A stretch of DNA of 55,983 bases from Melioribacter roseus P3M-2 (GTDB lineage: Bacteria; Bacteroidota; Ignavibacteria; Kapaibacteriales; Kapaibacteriaceae). Positions 38,147 through 40,827 of this stretch are shown in pieces. The position numbers and the translations under genes were made by a program. The notes under the pieces were generated by a model that ran no database searches, was not told the origin of the DNA, and worked only from the letters and a program-made list of their open reading frames with translations. The stretch covers positions 1 through 55,983 of the forward strand of contig CAMCXP010000001.1 in NCBI GenBank assembly GCA_945883395.1. Direction: 5' to 3'. Every line of letters begins with the position of its first letter. Position 1 is the stretch's first letter.

Positions 38147-38857
38147 ATGCTTCGCATCGCTCTCATCGCCACAGTAACAGCACTCCTGCTTGGAGCATGC
38201 GCGGGTACACCAGTACTGCCAGACCCATCGGGTCCGTCCGTTACAACGTATCGCATACCAGATTACCTACTCGCGGCGCGCATTGGTACATCGACAACGC
38301 TGGTGTATACCACTACCGACATCACTCCATCGGGTGACACATTGATCACTCCGTATGCGACATATCGATTTACCGTCATCGACACTGCTGTGTCCATTGC
38401 ACCGCAGAAGAAAGCTCTTGCCGTGCAACGCGAGACCACACAGGGTGGAGTCACAATCGTCGATACCACGTATCACTGGGCTGATGCCTCTGAGTTGATC
38501 ACGTTTGAACGCGCAACTGATACCGTCGGACGACGTCGCCTGGCTGCCCCGCTGGCTCCAGGCACAACGTTCCCACGGCGTACTCGCGAAGGCACCGAGC
38601 CGACGAACATCTACACTATCGTGACCTGCGTTGATACGGTTGCTACCCCGGTACGCGTGTTTGTGTCGTGCGTTCTGATTCGCATGCAAGCAACAACATC
38701 TACCGAAACGCAACGAACACAGACAACTGATGAGTTATGGTTAGCACCTGGTTTCGGAATCGTGCGGCAGCGCCAGACGCGCGTGGTCACAACAACGGCC
38801 ACAAATCAACGAGCTACTTCTATTCTTGAGTCATCCCTTGTTGCCATTACACTCTAA
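38147..38857 (+). CDS. hypothetical Thr-rich lipoprotein
   Basis: Signal peptide plus lipobox LLLGAC, and a beta-rich Thr/Val composition. It overlaps the next gene by 32 nt. Confidence 0.55.
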   Translation: MLRIALIATVTALLLGACAGTPVLPDPSGPSVTTYRIPDYLLAARIGTSTTLVYTTTDITPSGDTLITPYATYRFTVIDTAVSIAPQKKALAVQRETTQGGVTIVDTTYHWADASELITFERATDTVGRRRLAAPLAPGTTFPRRTREGTEPTNIYTIVTCVDTVATPVRVFVSCVLIRMQATTSTETQRTQTTDELWLAPGFGIVRQRQTRVVTTTATNQRATSILESSLVAITL

Positions 38858-40031
38858 CATCGCACGAGCGATCGTGGTCGCTCTGCTGATTGCCGGTTCG
38901 TCCGCGGCAATGGCGATCCCGCAGTTTTCAGCGCTCACCGGTAACCGCTGCATCAACTGTCATGTGAGTCCAACCGGTGGCGGACTCCGCAACGAACTCG
39001 GATGGTACAGCTGGTACGACGTCAGCATGGTGCCACGCAAGTCGTCCCTGATTTCCTGGGCATATCCCGAAGATGAATCAAACCAGTTCTTCGACGGCAT
39101 GCTCACCGTTGGCATGGACATGCGCGTGCAAAGCACACGCCAGTTCCTCGAAGGATCGTCGCGCGCAACATTCCCCATGCAAGCAAGCTTGTACGCTGCA
39201 GTAACGCCCGTAAAAGCCGTTACCGTCGAGGGCACATTCAATCTTGCTGCGCTACGCATCAGTGATGTTACACGCAGCACCTATCCCGTACAGCGCATGG
39301 GATCGGCATCGGTGCTCTTCCAGCCAGATGCGTCACTCCCATTGATTCGCGCCGGCTTGTTTCGTCCGTCAATCGGTATGCGCTACGACGATCACACCAT
39401 GGCGCCGTACAGCTGGGCCAACACATCCCTGCGTCAGACATATCTCGCACCTGATTGGTCGGAGTTTGGTGCTGAGTTGAATTACGAATCACTCAAATGG
39501 CTCTCGGTACAAGCTGGTGTGTTCGGCTCTGAAGCTCTGTCACGTCTGCGCGTCAGCAACGGACTAGCATCACAATCTGTGATTCAAGGCAACAGTCCGA
39601 CACTTACTGCGCGCGCAGTCGTGTGGCCTCGCGCGTTTAACGACATGCTTAACATGTGGTTCGGCGGATCCGTATTGATGAATGGCGACTTCCGAATGAC
39701 GAGTGCCTTTGCCGGCATCGGCCTGAGCGACAACCTCTCACTGATGCTCGACTACACCACCACAGAACTCGACGATGCCATTCGCACGAGCAACGTTATG
39801 GCAGAGCTCGGCTATCAAGTGTATTCGCCGTTGCTCGTCTATGCGCGCTATGAGCGCTACAGCACCGACCAGGAACTCGCACCGGGTACGATTGCCGCGA
39901 ACGCAGCCGTGTTCGGCGCACAGATCTTCGTGCTGCCCTACGTCGAGCTTCGTCCGGAATACCGCATCTGGGACACCTGGAAGGAAGGCACTGCCAATCG
40001 TTGGAATCTTCAGCTTCACCTCTTCTACTAA
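38826..40031 (+). CDS. outer-membrane beta-barrel protein with N-terminal single CXXCH heme motif (Cyc2-like fused cytochrome-porin architecture)
   Basis: Signal peptide ...LLIAGSSAAMA/IPQ. CINCH at nt 38949-38963. There are many amphipathic beta-strand segments and the C-terminus is NRWNLQLHLFY. The start is TTG at 38826, and its exact position is uncertain. Confidence 0.6.
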   Translation: MSHPLLPLHSNIARAIVVALLIAGSSAAMAIPQFSALTGNRCINCHVSPTGGGLRNELGWYSWYDVSMVPRKSSLISWAYPEDESNQFFDGMLTVGMDMRVQSTRQFLEGSSRATFPMQASLYAAVTPVKAVTVEGTFNLAALRISDVTRSTYPVQRMGSASVLFQPDASLPLIRAGLFRPSIGMRYDDHTMAPYSWANTSLRQTYLAPDWSEFGAELNYESLKWLSVQAGVFGSEALSRLRVSNGLASQSVIQGNSPTLTARAVVWPRAFNDMLNMWFGGSVLMNGDFRMTSAFAGIGLSDNLSLMLDYTTTELDDAIRTSNVMAELGYQVYSPLLVYARYERYSTDQELAPGTIAANAAVFGAQIFVLPYVELRPEYRIWDTWKEGTANRWNLQLHLFY

Positions 40032-40040
40032 GGCACGCAC

Positions 40041-40340
40041 ATGATATGGCGCTTGCTCATCATCATCGGCATCGTTGGCATCCTCGTAGGGGGCGGCCTA
40101 TGGTTCAAGGACGGACGGCAGATCTTCTCGAAGGATCGTGAAGAGATTGTGACGATCGTCAAGGATCCTCTCTTTGGTACCGAAACGAAGCAGGTTACCT
40201 ATGAACCACGCTTCCGCTTCGGCTTGCTCCCTCTGGATGCAACGCCCCAGGCAATTCCGGCAAGCCTTGCCTTCGTTGCGGGAACCTCGCTCGTGCTGAT
40301 CGGGTTGGGATGGTGGAAGCTTCGTTCGAAACAATCGTAA
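40041..40340 (+). CDS. small two-TM membrane protein
   Basis: 99 aa with an N-terminal helix (LLIIIGIVGILVGGGLW) and a C-terminal helix (LAFVAGTSLVLIGLGWW). It starts 9 nt after the previous stop. Confidence 0.5.
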   Translation: MIWRLLIIIGIVGILVGGGLWFKDGRQIFSKDREEIVTIVKDPLFGTETKQVTYEPRFRFGLLPLDATPQAIPASLAFVAGTSLVLIGLGWWKLRSKQS

Positions 40341-40350
40341 GGGATTAAGC

Positions 40351-40827
40351 ATGTCATCACCATCATCACGACGTCATTTCCTCCGCAGCGCCGCTGCATC
40401 GATCGGACTCGCCATGTCGGCTGCAAGCGTAGCGACGCTCGTCGCTGGTTGCGAAACTGATGAGTCGAACCCAACACCATCAGGCACAACATTTACCGTC
40501 GATGTTGCTGCTGTTCCTGAACTCGCAAACGTGGGTGGCATCACACTACGTCTGATTGCCGGACTCAACGGTGGCGCACCGGTGTTCATATCACGGATCG
40601 CGTCCAACACGTTTGTTGTCTTCAGCTCGATCTGTACGCACGCCGGCTGCGAAGTAAACCCTCCTGCTGCTGCCGGAGCCGACATCATCTGCAGCTGCCA
40701 CGGTGCGCAGTTTGCTGCTGCCGACGGAGCAGTGAAGCGTCAACCGAATACCGGTAGCGCAACTGATCTCAAGCGATTCCCATCGGCGTTTAATTCGTCA
40801 ACGAACATTCTGATTATTACTGCGTGA
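40351..40827 (+). CDS. Rieske [2Fe-2S] protein, Tat-exported lipoprotein, bc1/b6f-type cluster boxes
   Basis: Twin-arginine motif SRRHFL, lipobox LVAGC, box I CTHAGC and box II CSCHGA. Confidence 0.85.
   Translation: MSSPSSRRHFLRSAAASIGLAMSAASVATLVAGCETDESNPTPSGTTFTVDVAAVPELANVGGITLRLIAGLNGGAPVFISRIASNTFVVFSSICTHAGCEVNPPAAAGADIICSCHGAQFAAADGAVKRQPNTGSATDLKRFPSAFNSSTNILIITA

What the first reader, a model, noticed from the sequence alone, without database searches (positions are those of the whole stretch)
38826..40827. Cyc2-like fused monoheme cytochrome-porin followed by a 2-TM protein and a Tat-exported, lipid-anchored bc-type Rieske protein: candidate undescribed outer-membrane-to-periplasm electron conduit
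Seen in the sequence:
- The 401-aa ORF has a signal peptide (…AGSSAAMA/IPQ) and a single CINCH motif about 12 residues after the predicted cleavage site (nt 38949-38963).
- The rest of the protein shows about 350 aa of alternating amphipathic strand pattern and ends in NLQLHLFY, the aromatic C-terminus typical of outer-membrane barrels.
- A 99-aa two-TM protein starts 9 nt later.
- A 158-aa Rieske protein starts 10 nt after that. It has an SRRHFL twin-arginine motif, an LVAGC lipobox, and boxes CTHAGC / CSCHGA. These boxes include the extra disulfide cysteines characteristic of high-potential bc1/b6f-type Rieske centres rather than oxygenase-type ones.

Established knowledge:
- The architecture of signal peptide, one CXXCH and a porin of about 16 strands, at about 400-450 aa, defines Cyc2. 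Cyc2 is the Fe(II) oxidase of Acidithiobacillus, Zetaproteobacteria and some Chlorobia.
- Described Cyc2 loci hand electrons to soluble c-type cytochromes or cupredoxins.

Inference:
- I am not aware of a described Cyc2 partner that is a stand-alone periplasmic Rieske lipoprotein.
- This trio, possibly with the upstream lipoproteins at 36591-38857, may therefore be an unrecognised extracellular electron-uptake or iron-oxidation module in an FCB-group organism.
- Homology to Cyc2 is not verified. The proposal rests on architecture only.
Basis: partly seen in the sequence, partly recalled or inferred. Interest (0 to 1): 0.8.

Follow-up and report, generated by a model that had tools for sequence, protein, structure and literature searches.

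The report
Haem porin paired with Rieske protein
A Kapabacteria-type bacterium encodes an outer-membrane pore carrying one haem, a distant relative of the iron-oxidising protein Cyc2, and across dozens of lineages this gene sits next to a lipid-anchored iron-sulfur (Rieske) protein, which suggests an undescribed two-protein route for moving electrons across the cell envelope.

Summary

**The 401-aa protein.** It has a signal peptide and only two cysteines, both in an invariant CINCH motif. AlphaFold predicts a 16-strand porin. It matches no Pfam, NCBIfam or PDB sequence, but canonical Cyc2 proteins match none either. A profile comparison with 38 Cyc2 proteins that carry the published defining motif gives 97.7% probability (E 2e-12) over 344 columns, and the haem part and the barrel part each match separately. 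It is a divergent Cyc2-superfamily clade: it lacks the strict FAR[Q/K][T/Y] and PXL motifs and has its own RYDDHT and QLHxFY motifs.

**Gene neighbourhood.** Of 49 informative distinct loci (27-94% identity, four gene layouts, unrelated flanks), 46 carry a same-strand Rieske gene next to the barrel. Many also carry the 2-TM gene (31) or a YceI-size ORF (21). Canonical Cyc2 loci usually carry a c-type cytochrome instead.

**The Rieske protein.** It is a Tat-exported lipoprotein. Its closest solved relative is cyanobacterial PetC3, which has a lipid anchor, Em +135 mV and unknown function. It shares PetC3's Ala/Phe substitutions, so it is probably low-potential, not high-potential.

**Reading.** This is most likely an envelope electron module. 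The direction of flow is unresolved, and no function was tested.

The parts
38826..40031 (+). Divergent Cyc2-superfamily fused monohaem cytochrome / 16-strand outer-membrane porin (401 aa). Signal peptide 38826-38915. Cyc2-like pre-haem motif AIPQFSALTGNR 38913-38948. CINCH 38949-38963. FPMQ 39171-39182. RYDDHT 39381-39398. QLHLFY 40011-40028.
   Evidence: ORF and motifs. Invariant columns. AF2 barrel. Foldseek porins OprO/OprP. hhalign to canonical-motif Cyc2, 97.7%, E 2.1e-12. Separate barrel and haem matches.
40041..40340 (+). 99-aa protein with two predicted TM helices and a loop of about 50 aa carrying a conserved KD[RK]E..V....D.(L)FG motif. Probably an inner-membrane component. Function unknown.
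   Evidence: Orthologue present in 31 of 49 informative loci. Alignment. Fused to a YceI domain in L161. No Pfam or NCBIfam family.
40351..40827 (+). Tat-exported, lipobox-bearing Rieske [2Fe-2S] protein (158 aa), PetC3-like. SRRHFLR 40366-40386. LVAGC 40438-40452, followed by the acidic stretch ETDES. CTHAGC 40633-40650. CSCHGAQF 40690-40713.
   Evidence: Pfam Rieske 1e-9. Sub-threshold best NCBIfam hits to bc1/b6f Rieske. Closest PDB sequence 5cxm PetC3. AF2 core pLDDT above 95. Foldseek bc1/b6f/C. tepidum Rieske. Ligand residues conserved and disulfide cysteines co-vary. Adjacent to the barrel in 46 of 49 loci.
38147..38857 (+). Predicted lipoprotein (start re-set to ATG 38147; ...LLGAC lipobox), overlapping the barrel start by 32 nt. 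Found only in the closest relatives. Role unknown.
   Evidence: Weak DUF3108-like hit only.
38097..38135 (+). 18-bp GC-rich hairpin with a short U-tract between the c6 stop (38078) and ATG 38147. Possible terminator, attenuator or RNA-stabilising element. It marks the 5' boundary of the tight c37-barrel-2TM-Rieske-rsmB array.
   Evidence: Fold -40.3 kcal/mol, z -5.1, 0 of 200 shuffles as stable.
36591..36989 (+). Possible accessory (weak link): 132-aa lipoprotein with a PSCyt1-type c-cytochrome motif in the CX4CH form (CANGGCH, 36747-36767).
   Evidence: Pfam PSCyt1 E 0.0027, below cut-off. The L136 orthologue passes the cut-off with CGQCH. CX4CH and CXXCH alternate among orthologues. Syntenic in 18 loci, all of which also share panB/rsmB flanks.
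37008..38078 (+). Possible accessory (weak link): 356-aa lipoprotein of unknown function.
   Evidence: Syntenic in 20 loci of the close clade only.

Best explanation
The three genes encode an envelope redox module.

**(1) Outer-membrane component.** This is a 16-strand porin whose first ~30 mature residues carry one covalently bound c-type haem on C42/C45, with H46 as the proximal ligand. It is a divergent member of the Cyc2 superfamily. As modelled for Cyc2, the haem peptide would sit at or in the periplasmic mouth of the barrel. Three invariant motifs may supply the sixth haem ligand and/or line the channel: RYDDHT on the predicted constriction loop L3, FPMQ on strand 2, and the lumen-facing Q396/H398 at the periplasmic end of the last strand.

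**(2) Periplasmic component.** This is a Rieske [2Fe-2S] protein that folds in the cytoplasm, is exported by Tat and is lipid-anchored at C34. It is of the PetC3 type and probably has a potential of about +100 to +160 mV. It exchanges single electrons with the haem.

**(3) Likely inner-membrane component.** A small 2-TM protein, plus a YceI-type polyisoprenoid/quinone-binding protein in many relatives, probably links the module to the inner membrane.

**Direction.** My preferred direction is inward. Fe(II), or another small reductant entering the pore, reduces the haem. The electron then passes to the Rieske cluster, on to a c-type cytochrome or oxidase, and ends on O2.

**Shown versus inferred.** Shown here: architecture, remote homology to Cyc2, fold, and conserved gene pairing. 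Inferred: haem and cluster occupancy, physical contact, potentials, direction, and the link to iron. My confidence is about 0.9 for identity and architecture, about 0.7 for functional coupling of barrel and Rieske, and about 0.4 for the inward Fe(II)-oxidising direction.
For: **Homology to Cyc2.**
- Full length: 97.7%, E 2.1e-12, 344 columns.
- Barrel only: 90.6%, E 1.3e-6. Haem region only: 96.7%, E 3.5e-10.
- An intermediate subfamily (P0250, P0262) bridges the two. It scores 61 bits against an HMM of 91 canonical-motif sequences and E 1e-26 to 1e-33 against the family profile.
- The pre-haem motif has the same spacing as Cyc2: A-x-P-x-F-x-x-x-T-G-x-x-CxxCH.

**Fold.** 16 long strands. OprO/OprP are among the best matches, the same templates reported for Cyc2 (PMC8406198).

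**Conservation.** CXXCH is invariant, and these are the only two cysteines.

**Gene pairing.**
- A Rieske gene is adjacent on the same strand in 46 of 49 informative distinct loci. These span 27-94% identity, four layouts and unrelated flanks.
- The partner is a three-domain Rieske in two loci.
- The pairing is clade-specific. No canonical-motif locus has a lipoprotein Rieske neighbour, and neither does the bridging subfamily.

**Rieske features.**
- Tat motif in all 59 orthologues.
- Lipobox regex matched in 41 of 59.
- Cluster ligands conserved.
- The disulfide cysteine pair is kept or lost together.

**Published anchors.**
- Cyc2PV-1 oxidises Fe(II) and has Em +208 mV (PMC8406198).
- PetC3 is a periplasmic lipid-anchored Rieske with Em +135 mV (PMC10172866).

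**Possible onward carriers.** PSCyt1-type c-cytochromes recur near the module: c7 in layout A and c69 in layout D. In bc complexes, c-type cytochromes are the natural acceptors of Rieske centres (established knowledge).
Against: - Nothing was measured. Haem attachment, cluster content, localisation and contact are all inferred.
- The protein fails the strict Cyc2 motif definition. It scores only 14.6 bits against my canonical-motif HMM.
- The AlphaFold confidence of the haem segment is below 50, so its position is unknown.
- If the haem had a Cyc2PV-1-like potential (+208 mV) and the Rieske a PetC3-like one (+135 mV), the haem-to-Rieske step would be slightly uphill. That favours the outward direction.
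- YceI (quinone-binding fold) in 21 of 49 loci, and the classical role of Rieske centres as quinol oxidants, also fit outward flow.
- No oxidase, cytochrome b or other respiratory gene is linked in any layout.
- Host lineages with names (Kapabacteria, Ignavibacteria, Bacteroidota, one Myxococcales) are not known iron oxidisers. Many Cyc2 homologues occur in bacteria not known to oxidise iron (PMC6344600).
- The acidic residues after the lipobox cysteine resemble a Bacteroidetes surface-export signal. If that signal acts here, the Rieske would be on the wrong side of the membrane.
Confidence: 0.5

Rival explanations
1. Same module, opposite direction. Electrons leave the cell. Menaquinol at the outer face of the inner membrane, handled by the 2-TM protein and, where present, by the YceI quinone-binding protein, reduces the Rieske cluster. 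The cluster then reduces the porin haem, and the haem reduces a small extracellular or pore-entering acceptor such as chelated Fe(III), a humic quinone or another oxidant. This would be a cytochrome-b-independent quinol oxidation route.
For: - A YceI-domain gene lies between the 2-TM and Rieske genes in 21 of 49 loci and is fused to the 2-TM protein in L161.
- Rieske centres are quinol oxidants in every characterised bc-type complex (established knowledge).
- The predicted low-potential Rieske (PetC3-like Ala/Phe) lies below the measured +208 mV of Cyc2PV-1, so Rieske-to-haem transfer would be downhill.
- Cyc2-like genes have been reported in Fe(III)/humics-reducing taxa, including Ignavibacteriaceae (PMC6344600).
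Against: - No Qo-site-forming cytochrome b is present. Quinol oxidation by a Rieske protein without cytochrome b has no precedent known to me.
- The window's own locus has no YceI gene.
- Every biochemically tested member of the superfamily oxidises Fe(II).
- The haem potential of this clade is unknown.
Confidence: 0.2
2. The pair is redox-active but not respiratory. It could serve envelope housekeeping, for example reductive iron acquisition (Fe(III) reduced at the pore and Fe(II) admitted through it), detoxification of Fe(II), or sensing and maintenance of periplasmic redox state.
For: - The locus is embedded among housekeeping genes (panB, rsmB, coaBC, GroEL and others) and is never linked to oxidase or bc genes.
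- It is widespread in heterotrophic FCB lineages.
- The closest characterised Rieske, PetC3, has been tied to cell-envelope homeostasis and nitrogen-related changes, not to a respiratory chain.
- The invariant acidic/His motif RYDDHT lies on the predicted constriction loop, which could bind a metal cation (inference).
Against: Nothing specific points to iron uptake. There is no Fur box analysis, and no TonB or Feo gene in the conserved module. A dedicated Tat-exported Fe-S partner, conserved down to 27% identity, is a costly arrangement for a passive pore.
Confidence: 0.2
3. The Rieske lipoprotein is exported to the cell surface by the Bacteroidota lipoprotein export pathway and works on the outside of the porin. 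The order would then be extracellular substrate, then Rieske, then haem.
For: The residues after the lipidated Cys are E-T-D-E-S, with D/E at +4 and +5 after a polar residue. C-E-x-[DN]-E is conserved across orthologues. This resembles the experimentally defined export signal: C-X-K-(D/E)2-X in C. canimorsus, SDDDD in B. fragilis and SDDFE in F. johnsoniae (PMC5080379).
Against: - The signal was defined in Bacteroidia and Flavobacteriia, not in Kapabacteria.
- Several orthologues have only one acidic residue there (CESDTTK, CSSETKP).
- A Tat substrate is already folded and carries its cofactor, and no route for such a protein across the outer membrane is known in this phylum.
- The Cyc2 haem domain is modelled on the periplasmic side.
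Confidence: 0.07
4. The neighbourhood is fortuitous or reflects only co-regulation. The barrel is an ordinary porin whose CXXCH does not bind haem, and the Rieske belongs to an unrelated pathway.
For: No Pfam, NCBIfam or PDB sequence match for the barrel. Nothing was tested experimentally.
Against: - Canonical Cyc2 proteins also match no curated family, so the absence of hits is uninformative.
- The haem region alone matches Cyc2 at 96.7%.
- The two cysteines are the only ones in the protein and are invariant.
- The pairing survives gene-order inversion and complete turnover of flanking genes in 46 of 49 loci.
Confidence: 0.03

Closest known systems
Cyc2 fused cytochrome-porins (Clusters 1-3: Cyc2PV-1 of Mariprofundus ferrooxydans, Cyc2 of Acidithiobacillus ferrooxidans, Cyt572 of Leptospirillum)
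   Same: Signal peptide. One CXXCH within about 15 residues of the cleavage site. The same spacing in the pre-haem motif (A-x-P-x-F-...-T-G-x-x-C). A 16-strand OprO/OprP-like barrel. About 400 aa. Profile-profile homology over nearly the full length.
   Different: - It lacks the defining FAR[Q/K] residues (SAL/SLL instead) and the downstream PXL motif, so published motif filters would discard it.
- It has its own invariant motifs: GGGxRNxLGWY, FPMQ, RYDDHT and QLHxFY.
- Its conserved neighbour is a Rieske lipoprotein. In contrast, 29 of 48 canonical-motif loci have a same-strand CXXCH-containing ORF within 1.5 kb.
- Its activity has not been tested.
PetC3 family of cyanobacterial Rieske proteins (Synechocystis Sll1182, PDB 5CXM)
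   Same: Closest solved sequence (E 4.5e-7). Compact Rieske domain of about 110 aa. Tat-type signal plus a lipobox cysteine giving a lipid anchor. Not encoded next to cytochrome b. Box II reads C-x-C-H-G-A-x-F, with Ala and Phe at the two hydrogen-bond positions, which in PetC3 goes with Em +135 mV.
   Different: A different phylum, with only about 30-40% identity over the cluster-binding half. PetC3 has no known haem-porin partner, and its function is unresolved. The protein here is genetically tied to a Cyc2-like barrel.
Rieske subunits of cytochrome bc1/b6f and related Rieske/cyt b complexes, including the Cyc2-linked example found here in L096
   Same: bc-type cluster-binding fold with the extra disulfide cysteines (CTHAGC / CSCH). 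Best sub-threshold NCBIfam and Foldseek matches. L096 shows that a canonical Cyc2 gene can sit directly upstream of a Rieske gene.
   Different: In L096 and in bc complexes, the Rieske keeps an uncleaved TM anchor and is followed by cytochrome b and a c-type cytochrome. Here it has a lipobox, and no cytochrome b occurs in any of the 49 informative loci. All NCBIfam scores are far below the curated cut-offs (33-35 bits against 97-275).
Porin-cytochrome complexes (MtrAB/MtoAB/PioAB, Geobacter Omb-Oma-Omc)
   Same: They move electrons across the outer membrane through a haem protein held in a beta-barrel.
   Different: Those use a 26-strand barrel and a separate decahaem or multihaem protein. This is a single polypeptide with one haem and 16 strands.
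rus and petI operons of Acidithiobacillus ferrooxidans (Cyc2 to rusticyanin to Cyc1/aa3, or to CycA1/bc1)
   Same: An outer-membrane Cyc2-type entry point hands electrons to a small periplasmic one-electron carrier. A Rieske centre takes part in the uphill branch.
   Different: The periplasmic carriers there are a cupredoxin and soluble c-cytochromes. The Rieske is a subunit of a full bc1 complex encoded elsewhere (PMC10654088).

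Membership tests
Cyc2 (criteria of Keffer et al. 2021, PMC8406198) | N-terminal signal peptide | tested here: met
   Hydrophobic core plus AMA/IPQ cleavage-type site, conserved in position across 39 homologues. 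Judged by eye, no SignalP run.
Cyc2 (criteria of Keffer et al. 2021, PMC8406198) | Single CXXCH haem-binding motif near the N-terminus | tested here: met
   CINCH at residues 42-46. It is invariant and occurs exactly once per protein.
Cyc2 (criteria of Keffer et al. 2021, PMC8406198) | AXPXFAR[Q/K][T/Y] motif just upstream of CXXCH (used as PXFAR[Q/K][T/Y] to screen sequences) | tested here: not met
   The window has A-I-P-Q-F-S-A-L-T and the family consensus is A-[IL]-P-Q-F-S-L-L-T. A, P, F and T, and the spacing to Cys, are kept, but A-R-[Q/K] is not.
Cyc2 (criteria of Keffer et al. 2021, PMC8406198) | PXL motif a few residues downstream of CXXCH | tested here: not met
   CH is followed by V-x-x-x-G-G-G-L-R-N. 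There is no conserved Pro in the family, whereas P48 and L50 are (nearly) invariant in the canonical set.
Cyc2 (criteria of Keffer et al. 2021, PMC8406198) | C-terminal 16-strand porin structurally similar to OprO/OprP | tested here: met
   The AF2 model has 16 strands of 7 or more residues. Foldseek gives 4rjw TM 0.53 and 2o4v TM 0.54, with E about 1e-10 to 1e-9.
Cyc2 (criteria of Keffer et al. 2021, PMC8406198) | Length at least 365 aa | tested here: met
   401 aa.
Cyc2 (criteria of Keffer et al. 2021, PMC8406198) | Match to a FeGenie Cyc2 cluster HMM above its calibrated cut-off | not testable with these tools
   FeGenie models are not on hand. Proxy tests gave 14.6 bits against my HMM of 91 canonical-motif ORFs (weak) and 97.7% in a profile-profile comparison.
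Cyc2 (criteria of Keffer et al. 2021, PMC8406198) | Detectable sequence homology to accepted members | tested here: met
   hhalign E 2.1e-12 over 344 columns. The barrel and haem parts each match. A bridging subfamily links the two.
Cyc2 (criteria of Keffer et al. 2021, PMC8406198) | Fe(II) oxidase activity and covalently bound haem | not testable with these tools
   Needs expression, haem stain and Fe(II) reduction assay.
PetC3-type lipid-anchored Rieske proteins | Rieske [2Fe-2S] ligands C-x-H ... C-x-x-H | tested here: met
   C95/H97 and C114/H117 are invariant in A3 and kept in all aligned orthologues. Pfam Rieske hit.
PetC3-type lipid-anchored Rieske proteins | Tat signal followed by a lipobox cysteine instead of a TM anchor | tested here: met
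   SRRHFLR and LVAGC. R7, R8 and C34 are invariant. The Tat motif is present in 59 of 59 orthologues and the lipobox regex matches 41 of 59.
PetC3-type lipid-anchored Rieske proteins | Ala and Phe replacing the Ser and Tyr that hydrogen-bond the cluster (low potential) | tested here: met
   CSCHGAQF against PetC3 CPCHGAEF. Significance per PMC10172866. Orthologues vary: A/S and F/Y.
PetC3-type lipid-anchored Rieske proteins | Not encoded with, or assembled into, a cytochrome b complex | tested here: met
   No cytochrome b in the window or in any surveyed locus of this clade. Assembly itself is not testable here.
PetC3-type lipid-anchored Rieske proteins | Midpoint potential near +135 mV | not testable with these tools
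   Needs a redox titration or EPR.
bc1/b6f Rieske subunit (NCBIfam TIGR01416, NF045928, NF010001) | Score above the curated family cut-off | tested here: not met
   32.5-34.9 bits against cut-offs of 97-250.
bc1/b6f Rieske subunit (NCBIfam TIGR01416, NF045928, NF010001) | Disulfide-forming cysteines in CxHxGC and CxCH | tested here: met
   CTHAGC and CSCH. The two cysteines are kept or lost together among orthologues.
bc1/b6f Rieske subunit (NCBIfam TIGR01416, NF045928, NF010001) | Adjacent cytochrome b gene | tested here: not met
   Absent. Contrast L096.
Porin-cytochrome complexes (MtrAB type) | Separate multihaem cytochrome inserted in a barrel of about 26 strands | tested here: not met
   One haem motif, 16 strands, one polypeptide.

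The most novel reading that the evidence does not exclude
The module is a cytochrome-b-independent quinol-to-outer-membrane wire. A PetC3-type Rieske lipoprotein takes electrons from menaquinol presented by the 2-TM and YceI proteins and delivers them to a single haem plugged in a porin. Alternatively, given its export-signal-like N-terminus, the Rieske could itself be displayed on the cell surface. Either reading would be a new way to use a Rieske centre. It would also give the first function to the orphan PetC3-type Rieske lipoproteins, with multi-Rieske variants (three tandem domains in L166 and L203) acting as longer wires.
Probability: 0.15. Interest if true: 0.85.

Novelty: new variant of a known kind. 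Interest (0 to 1): 0.62.

Why it matters
**Relevance to iron-cycling surveys.** Cyc2 is the main genetic marker used to infer microbial iron oxidation in metagenomes. How electrons leave its single haem is still only modelled.

**What this clade adds.**
- It is sizeable: 866 cluster representatives at E up to 1e-3 and 314 at E up to 1e-10.
- It lacks the motif used to screen Cyc2 sequences, so motif-based screens would miss it. Current HMM tools may miss it too, but that was not tested.
- It comes with a different, genetically fixed periplasmic partner.

**Why that is useful.**
- It offers a simple two-protein system, one haem and one [2Fe-2S] cluster, in which electron transfer from the outer membrane to the periplasm could be reconstituted and its direction measured.
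- It gives a concrete, testable partner for the PetC3-type lipid-anchored Rieske proteins, whose role has stayed unclear since their structure was solved.
- If the module proves active with iron or humics, Kapabacteria, Ignavibacteria and related Bacteroidota from lakes, wastewater and springs would need to be counted in iron-cycling budgets.

Tried and rejected
**Curated libraries.**
- Pfam, NCBIfam and PDB sequence searches of the barrel found nothing useful.
- Canonical Cyc2 proteins also match nothing there, so these libraries cannot decide membership.

**Getting reference Cyc2 sequences.**
- The supplement of PMC8406198 holds only an identity table, no sequences.
- A literature search for the peptide strings FARQT and similar matched German 'Infarkt' papers and was wasted.
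- tblastn of a bridging homologue against plasmids gave one useful weak hit, the Polymorphobacter Cyc2-like gene. That hit fixed the motif-to-Cys spacing and allowed the back-translated motif scan of genomes.

**Neighbour analysis.**
- Single-linkage clustering of neighbour ORFs merged the 2-TM and YceI families because of fusion proteins. I separated them by length and confirmed with Pfam.
- Other recurrent neighbours in the divergent layouts look unrelated from their sequences and were dropped; I did not run them against Pfam. They resemble acyl-CoA dehydrogenase, citrate synthase, a FadL-like OMP, a glycosyltransferase, a radical SAM enzyme, an epimerase and a methyltransferase.
- The large T9SS Ig-repeat protein downstream in layout B has no CXXCH and was not pursued.

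**Rejected ideas.**
- I considered that the Rieske is the subunit of a nearby bc complex. I rejected this because no cytochrome b is present in any locus of the clade.
- I considered an oxygenase-type Rieske ferredoxin. I rejected this because of the Tat signal with lipobox, the disulfide cysteines, and the ranking of PDB and NCBIfam hits.

**Other limits.**
- The sigma-70 promoter scan is uninformative for this phylum.
- The taxonomy of distant members is mostly unnamed.

Full report
**1. The observation**

- The 401-aa ORF is 38826-40031 (+).
- The 99-aa ORF is 40041-40340, 9 nt later.
- The 158-aa ORF is 40351-40827, 10 nt after that.

Direct translation confirms every quoted motif and its coordinates.
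- In the barrel: signal peptide ...AGSSAAMA/IPQ, CINCH at 38949-38963, and the C-terminus QLHLFY.
- In the Rieske: SRRHFLR, LVAGC, CTHAGC and CSCHGAQF.

The 401-aa protein has only two cysteines, both in CINCH. Its mature chain has three histidines: H46, H190 and H398.

One correction concerns the gene upstream of the barrel.
- An 18-bp GC-rich hairpin at 38097-38135 follows the stop of the 356-aa lipoprotein gene. It folds at -40.3 kcal/mol with z = -5.1.
- The hairpin overlaps the 5' end of the ORF listed as 38051-38857.
- That ORF therefore most likely starts at ATG 38147 (MLRIALIATVTALLLGAC...).
- From 38147 to the rsmB-like gene, the genes overlap or are no more than 10 nt apart.

**2. 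What the 401-aa protein is**

Curated libraries give no answer.
- The protein matches no Pfam or NCBIfam family, apart from a sub-threshold generic OMP_b-brl hit, and no PDB sequence.
- This silence is not informative. Proteins that satisfy the published Cyc2 definition, from Mariprofundus, Zetaproteobacteria, Acidithiobacillus and a Kapabacteria MAG, also match nothing in either library.

The family is real and conserved.
- A word-indexed search found 371 relatives, all unnamed or 'hypothetical'. The named ones come from Kapabacteria, Ignavibacteria and Bacteroidota.
- An exhaustive profile search found 866 cluster representatives at E up to 1e-3 and 314 at E up to 1e-10.
- A 39-sequence alignment (41-91% identity) has several invariant features: C42, C45 and H46; P32; G39; an FPMQ motif; a DDHT motif; and a QLHxFY C-terminus.

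The predicted structure is a porin.
- AlphaFold2 on this alignment gives mean pLDDT 79.8 and pTM 0.78, with 16 strands of 7 or more residues.
- The haem segment (residues 26-56) has low confidence, as expected without the cofactor.
- Foldseek's best PDB matches are 16-strand porins. They include OprO (4rjw) and OprP (2o4v) at TM about 0.53.
- These are the two templates reported for Cyc2 by Keffer et al. (PMC8406198).

**3. Is it Cyc2?**

Keffer et al. define the family by these features:
- a signal peptide
- one CXXCH
- an AXPXFAR[Q/K][T/Y] motif just upstream of it
- a PXL motif just downstream
- a 16-strand porin
- a length of at least 365 aa

No reference sequences were on hand, so I had to obtain them.
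- A weak tblastn hit to a Polymorphobacter plasmid gene (AVPSFAAQTGQPCQSCH...) fixed the spacing between motif and haem site. That gene is followed by a monohaem cytochrome c.
- I then back-translated P-x-F-A-R-[QK]-[TY]-xxx-C-x-x-C-H and scanned one genome per species.
They include Mariprofundus, several Zetaproteobacteria, Acidithiobacillus, Nitrospira defluvii, Melioribacteraceae, Ignavibacteriaceae and a Kapabacteria MAG.
- These yielded 91 complete ORFs of 350-650 aa.

The comparisons gave the following results.
- An HMM of the 91 ORFs scores the window protein at only 14.6 bits.
- The same HMM scores an intermediate subfamily (P0250, P0262; motif LPRFALxxGxxCxxCH) at about 61 bits over its full length.
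- My family profile had found that subfamily at E 1e-26 to 1e-33, so it bridges the two groups.
- Profile against profile, the family matches 38 canonical-motif proteins at 97.7% probability, E 2.1e-12, over 344 columns.
- The barrel alone gives 90.6%, E 1.3e-6. The haem region alone gives 96.7%, E 3.5e-10.

The window motif A-I-P-Q-F-S-A-L-T-G-N-R-C keeps A, P, F, T, G and the exact spacing. It replaces A-R-[Q/K], and there is no PXL.

Conclusion: this is a divergent clade of the Cyc2 superfamily. It is homologous and has the same architecture, but it fails two of the sequence criteria used to delimit Cyc2. One caveat applies. My reference set is defined by the published motif, not by identity to the three biochemically studied proteins.

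**4. The Rieske protein**

- It scores above the Pfam Rieske threshold.
- Its best NCBIfam hits are bc1/b6f Rieske subunits, all far below cut-off.
- Its closest solved sequence is 5cxm, Synechocystis PetC3 (E 4.5e-7).
- The AlphaFold model has a core pLDDT above 95.
- The model matches bc1/b6f Rieske proteins, the Chlorobaculum tepidum Rieske soluble domain, a Kuenenia Rieske and the arsenite oxidase small subunit.

Features across 59 distinct orthologues:
- All keep a twin-arginine motif, and 41 match a lipobox pattern.
- The four cluster ligands are conserved.
- The two extra cysteines are either both present or both absent, as expected for a disulfide.

PetC3 is described as a periplasmic, lipid-anchored Rieske with Em +135 mV and unresolved function. 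Its low potential is attributed to Ala replacing Ser and Phe replacing Tyr next to the cluster (PMC10172866; PMC12341915). The window protein reads CSCHGAQF against PetC3's CPCHGAEF.

A stand-alone Rieske lipoprotein also has a precedent.

**5. Is the neighbourhood conserved?**

The first three look-ups gave these results.
- One locus at 62% identity has the same order of neighbouring genes around the trio as the window.
- One at 43% has barrel, 100-aa gene, YceI, Rieske, in different flanks.
- One at 43% has barrel and Rieske directly adjacent, in different flanks.

A metagenome scan then added 78 loci at 27-94% identity. After removing duplicates there are 74 distinct loci. Of these, 49 have enough sequence on both sides to be informative.
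- 46 of the 49 have a same-strand Rieske gene beside the barrel: 39 downstream and 7 upstream.
- 31 have the 2-TM gene.
- 21 have a YceI-size ORF.
- The three exceptions are L146, L177 and L197.

Four layouts occur.
- **A:** panB, small PSCyt1-type lipoprotein, 356-aa lipoprotein, barrel, 2-TM, Rieske, rsmB. This is the window's clade.
- **B:** barrel, 2-TM, YceI, Rieske, then a large T9SS Ig-repeat protein.
- **C:** barrel, Rieske.
- **D:** Rieske, barrel, then YceI and 2-TM.

Pfam confirms several of these assignments.
- The YceI domain scores E 5.6e-26.
- L161 carries a 2-TM/YceI fusion.
- In L166 (Pfam-confirmed) and L203 (by sequence), the partner is a Tat lipoprotein with three tandem Rieske domains.

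The pairing is specific to this clade.
- Among canonical-motif loci, phmmer finds a Rieske within 8 kb in only three.
- The only adjacent one, L096, is the TM-anchored subunit of a complete Rieske/cytochrome b/multihaem-c cluster.
- 29 of 48 canonical loci instead carry a same-strand CXXCH ORF within 1.5 kb.
- The bridging subfamily has no Rieske neighbour.

The upstream lipoproteins are syntenic only in layout A, where the housekeeping flanks are conserved too. Their link to the trio is therefore weak. PSCyt1-type cytochromes do recur beside the barrel in layout D (c69).

**6. How it most likely works**

Shown here:
- a Cyc2-homologous haem-porin
- a PetC3-like Tat lipoprotein Rieske
- a small 2-TM protein
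- a gene pairing that has survived inversion and complete turnover of flanking genes

Inferred:
- The barrel binds one haem c at its periplasmic mouth, as modelled for Cyc2.
- The Rieske cluster exchanges single electrons with that haem.
- The 2-TM protein, and YceI where present, connect the module to the inner membrane.

By position in the model, RYDDHT lies on the loop after strand 5, the constriction loop L3 of classical porins. Q396 and H398 should face the lumen at the periplasmic end of the last strand. H190, H398 or M118 may therefore be the sixth haem ligand.

I prefer inward flow from Fe(II), for two reasons.
- The only tested activity in the superfamily is Fe(II) oxidation, with Em +208 mV for Cyc2PV-1.
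- Rieske centres naturally reduce c-type cytochromes.

My confidence in this direction is only about 0.4. A +135 mV Rieske would sit below a +208 mV haem, and YceI points to quinones. Both fit outward flow. A non-respiratory role, such as iron acquisition or envelope redox homeostasis as discussed for PetC3, is also open. No oxidase or cytochrome b gene is linked in any layout.

The residues after the lipidated cysteine (E-T-D-E-S, conserved as C-E-x-[DN]-E) resemble the Bacteroidetes surface-export signal (PMC5080379). This leaves a small chance that the Rieske is surface-exposed.

**7. Novelty and verdict**

- Cyc2-like genes have been reported before in Ignavibacteriaceae and Bacteroidetes MAGs (PMC6344600), so a Cyc2 relative in this group is not new in itself.
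- What appears new is a sizeable clade that lacks the published Cyc2 screening motif and has a near-obligatory Rieske lipoprotein partner.
- I found no description of such a pairing in the held literature. That library is incomplete.
- I rate it a new variant of a known kind, with interest 0.62. A specialist would find it worth an experiment. It offers a minimal system for studying how electrons leave a Cyc2-type haem, and a candidate role for orphan PetC3-type Rieske proteins. No function has been tested.

Noticed in passing
window 36591-36989 (motif 36747-36767); L136:345-773; L174:3460-3870: The small PSCyt1-type lipoprotein upstream carries CANGGCH (CX4CH). Most orthologues have C[AG]xxGCH, but two have a standard CXXCH (CGQCH, CGPCH) at the same alignment position. 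A CX4CH (CGMGGCH) also occurs in the PSCyt1-type protein c69 of L176. This suggests CX4CH is a working haem-attachment variant in this domain family.
   Followed up: partly
window 38097-38135: An 18-bp GC-rich hairpin (-40.3 kcal/mol, z -5.1) with a weak U-tract lies 12 nt before ATG 38147. It could be a terminator, an attenuator or an RNA-stabilising element inside an otherwise tightly packed same-strand array. It implies that the listed ORF start at 38051 is wrong.
   Followed up: partly
L166:2195-3370 and L203:523-1827: In two divergent loci, the Rieske partner of the barrel is a single Tat lipoprotein with three tandem Rieske domains. The middle domain has lost the second histidine ligand (CPCDGS).
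   Followed up: partly
L096:1520-5986: A canonical-motif Cyc2 gene is preceded by a monohaem cytochrome c. It is followed directly by a TM-anchored Rieske, a cytochrome b and a multihaem cytochrome c. This is a Cyc2 gene embedded in a complete Rieske/cyt b complex cluster. I did not look up the organism.
   Followed up: partly
window 40453-40470 and Rieske orthologues in L128-L201: The lipobox cysteine of the Rieske protein is followed by a conserved acidic stretch, C-E-x-[DN]-E. This resembles the Bacteroidetes lipoprotein surface-export signal. The other three lipoproteins of the locus lack it.
   Followed up: partly
L018:3976-5172 (Kapabacteria MAG), L038, L044, L064 (Melioribacteraceae/Ignavibacteriaceae): Relatives of the window's organism also carry a Cyc2 with the canonical AIPAFARKY...CxxCH...PxL motif. 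Both types therefore occur in Kapabacteria and their relatives. Whether a single genome carries both was not checked.
   Followed up: no
L206-L208 (P0247), L205 (P0250): The bridging subfamily (LPRFALxxGxxCxxCHxNPTGG, about 375-400 aa) shares RxDDHT and QxHxW/F-Y/F with the window clade but has no Rieske neighbour. P0247 is followed by a 615-aa TPR protein and clpX.
   Followed up: partly
NZ_CP081849.1 289246-290939 (L006:3929-5622): A 907-kb plasmid of Polymorphobacter megasporae encodes a 444-aa Cyc2-like protein (AVPSFAAQTGQPCQSCH) annotated as hypothetical. A monohaem c-type cytochrome gene follows immediately.
   Followed up: partly
L002:8975-11737, L175:7566-10172, L155:3-4913: In layout B, the Rieske gene is followed by a very large (850-1600 aa) protein of Ig-like repeats with a T9SS C-terminal sorting domain. 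It has no CXXCH. It recurs in 17 loci, and its relation to the module is unknown.
   Followed up: no
window 18025-20255 (-) and 52270-53682 (+): Elsewhere in the window there is a membrane polyferredoxin-like 4Fe-4S protein next to a pyridine-nucleotide-disulfide oxidoreductase, and a metallo-beta-lactamase-fold/rhodanese fusion that may act in persulfide or sulfur handling. The rest sampled is housekeeping: GroEL, subtilase, GCS2, Fic and EngA.
   Followed up: no
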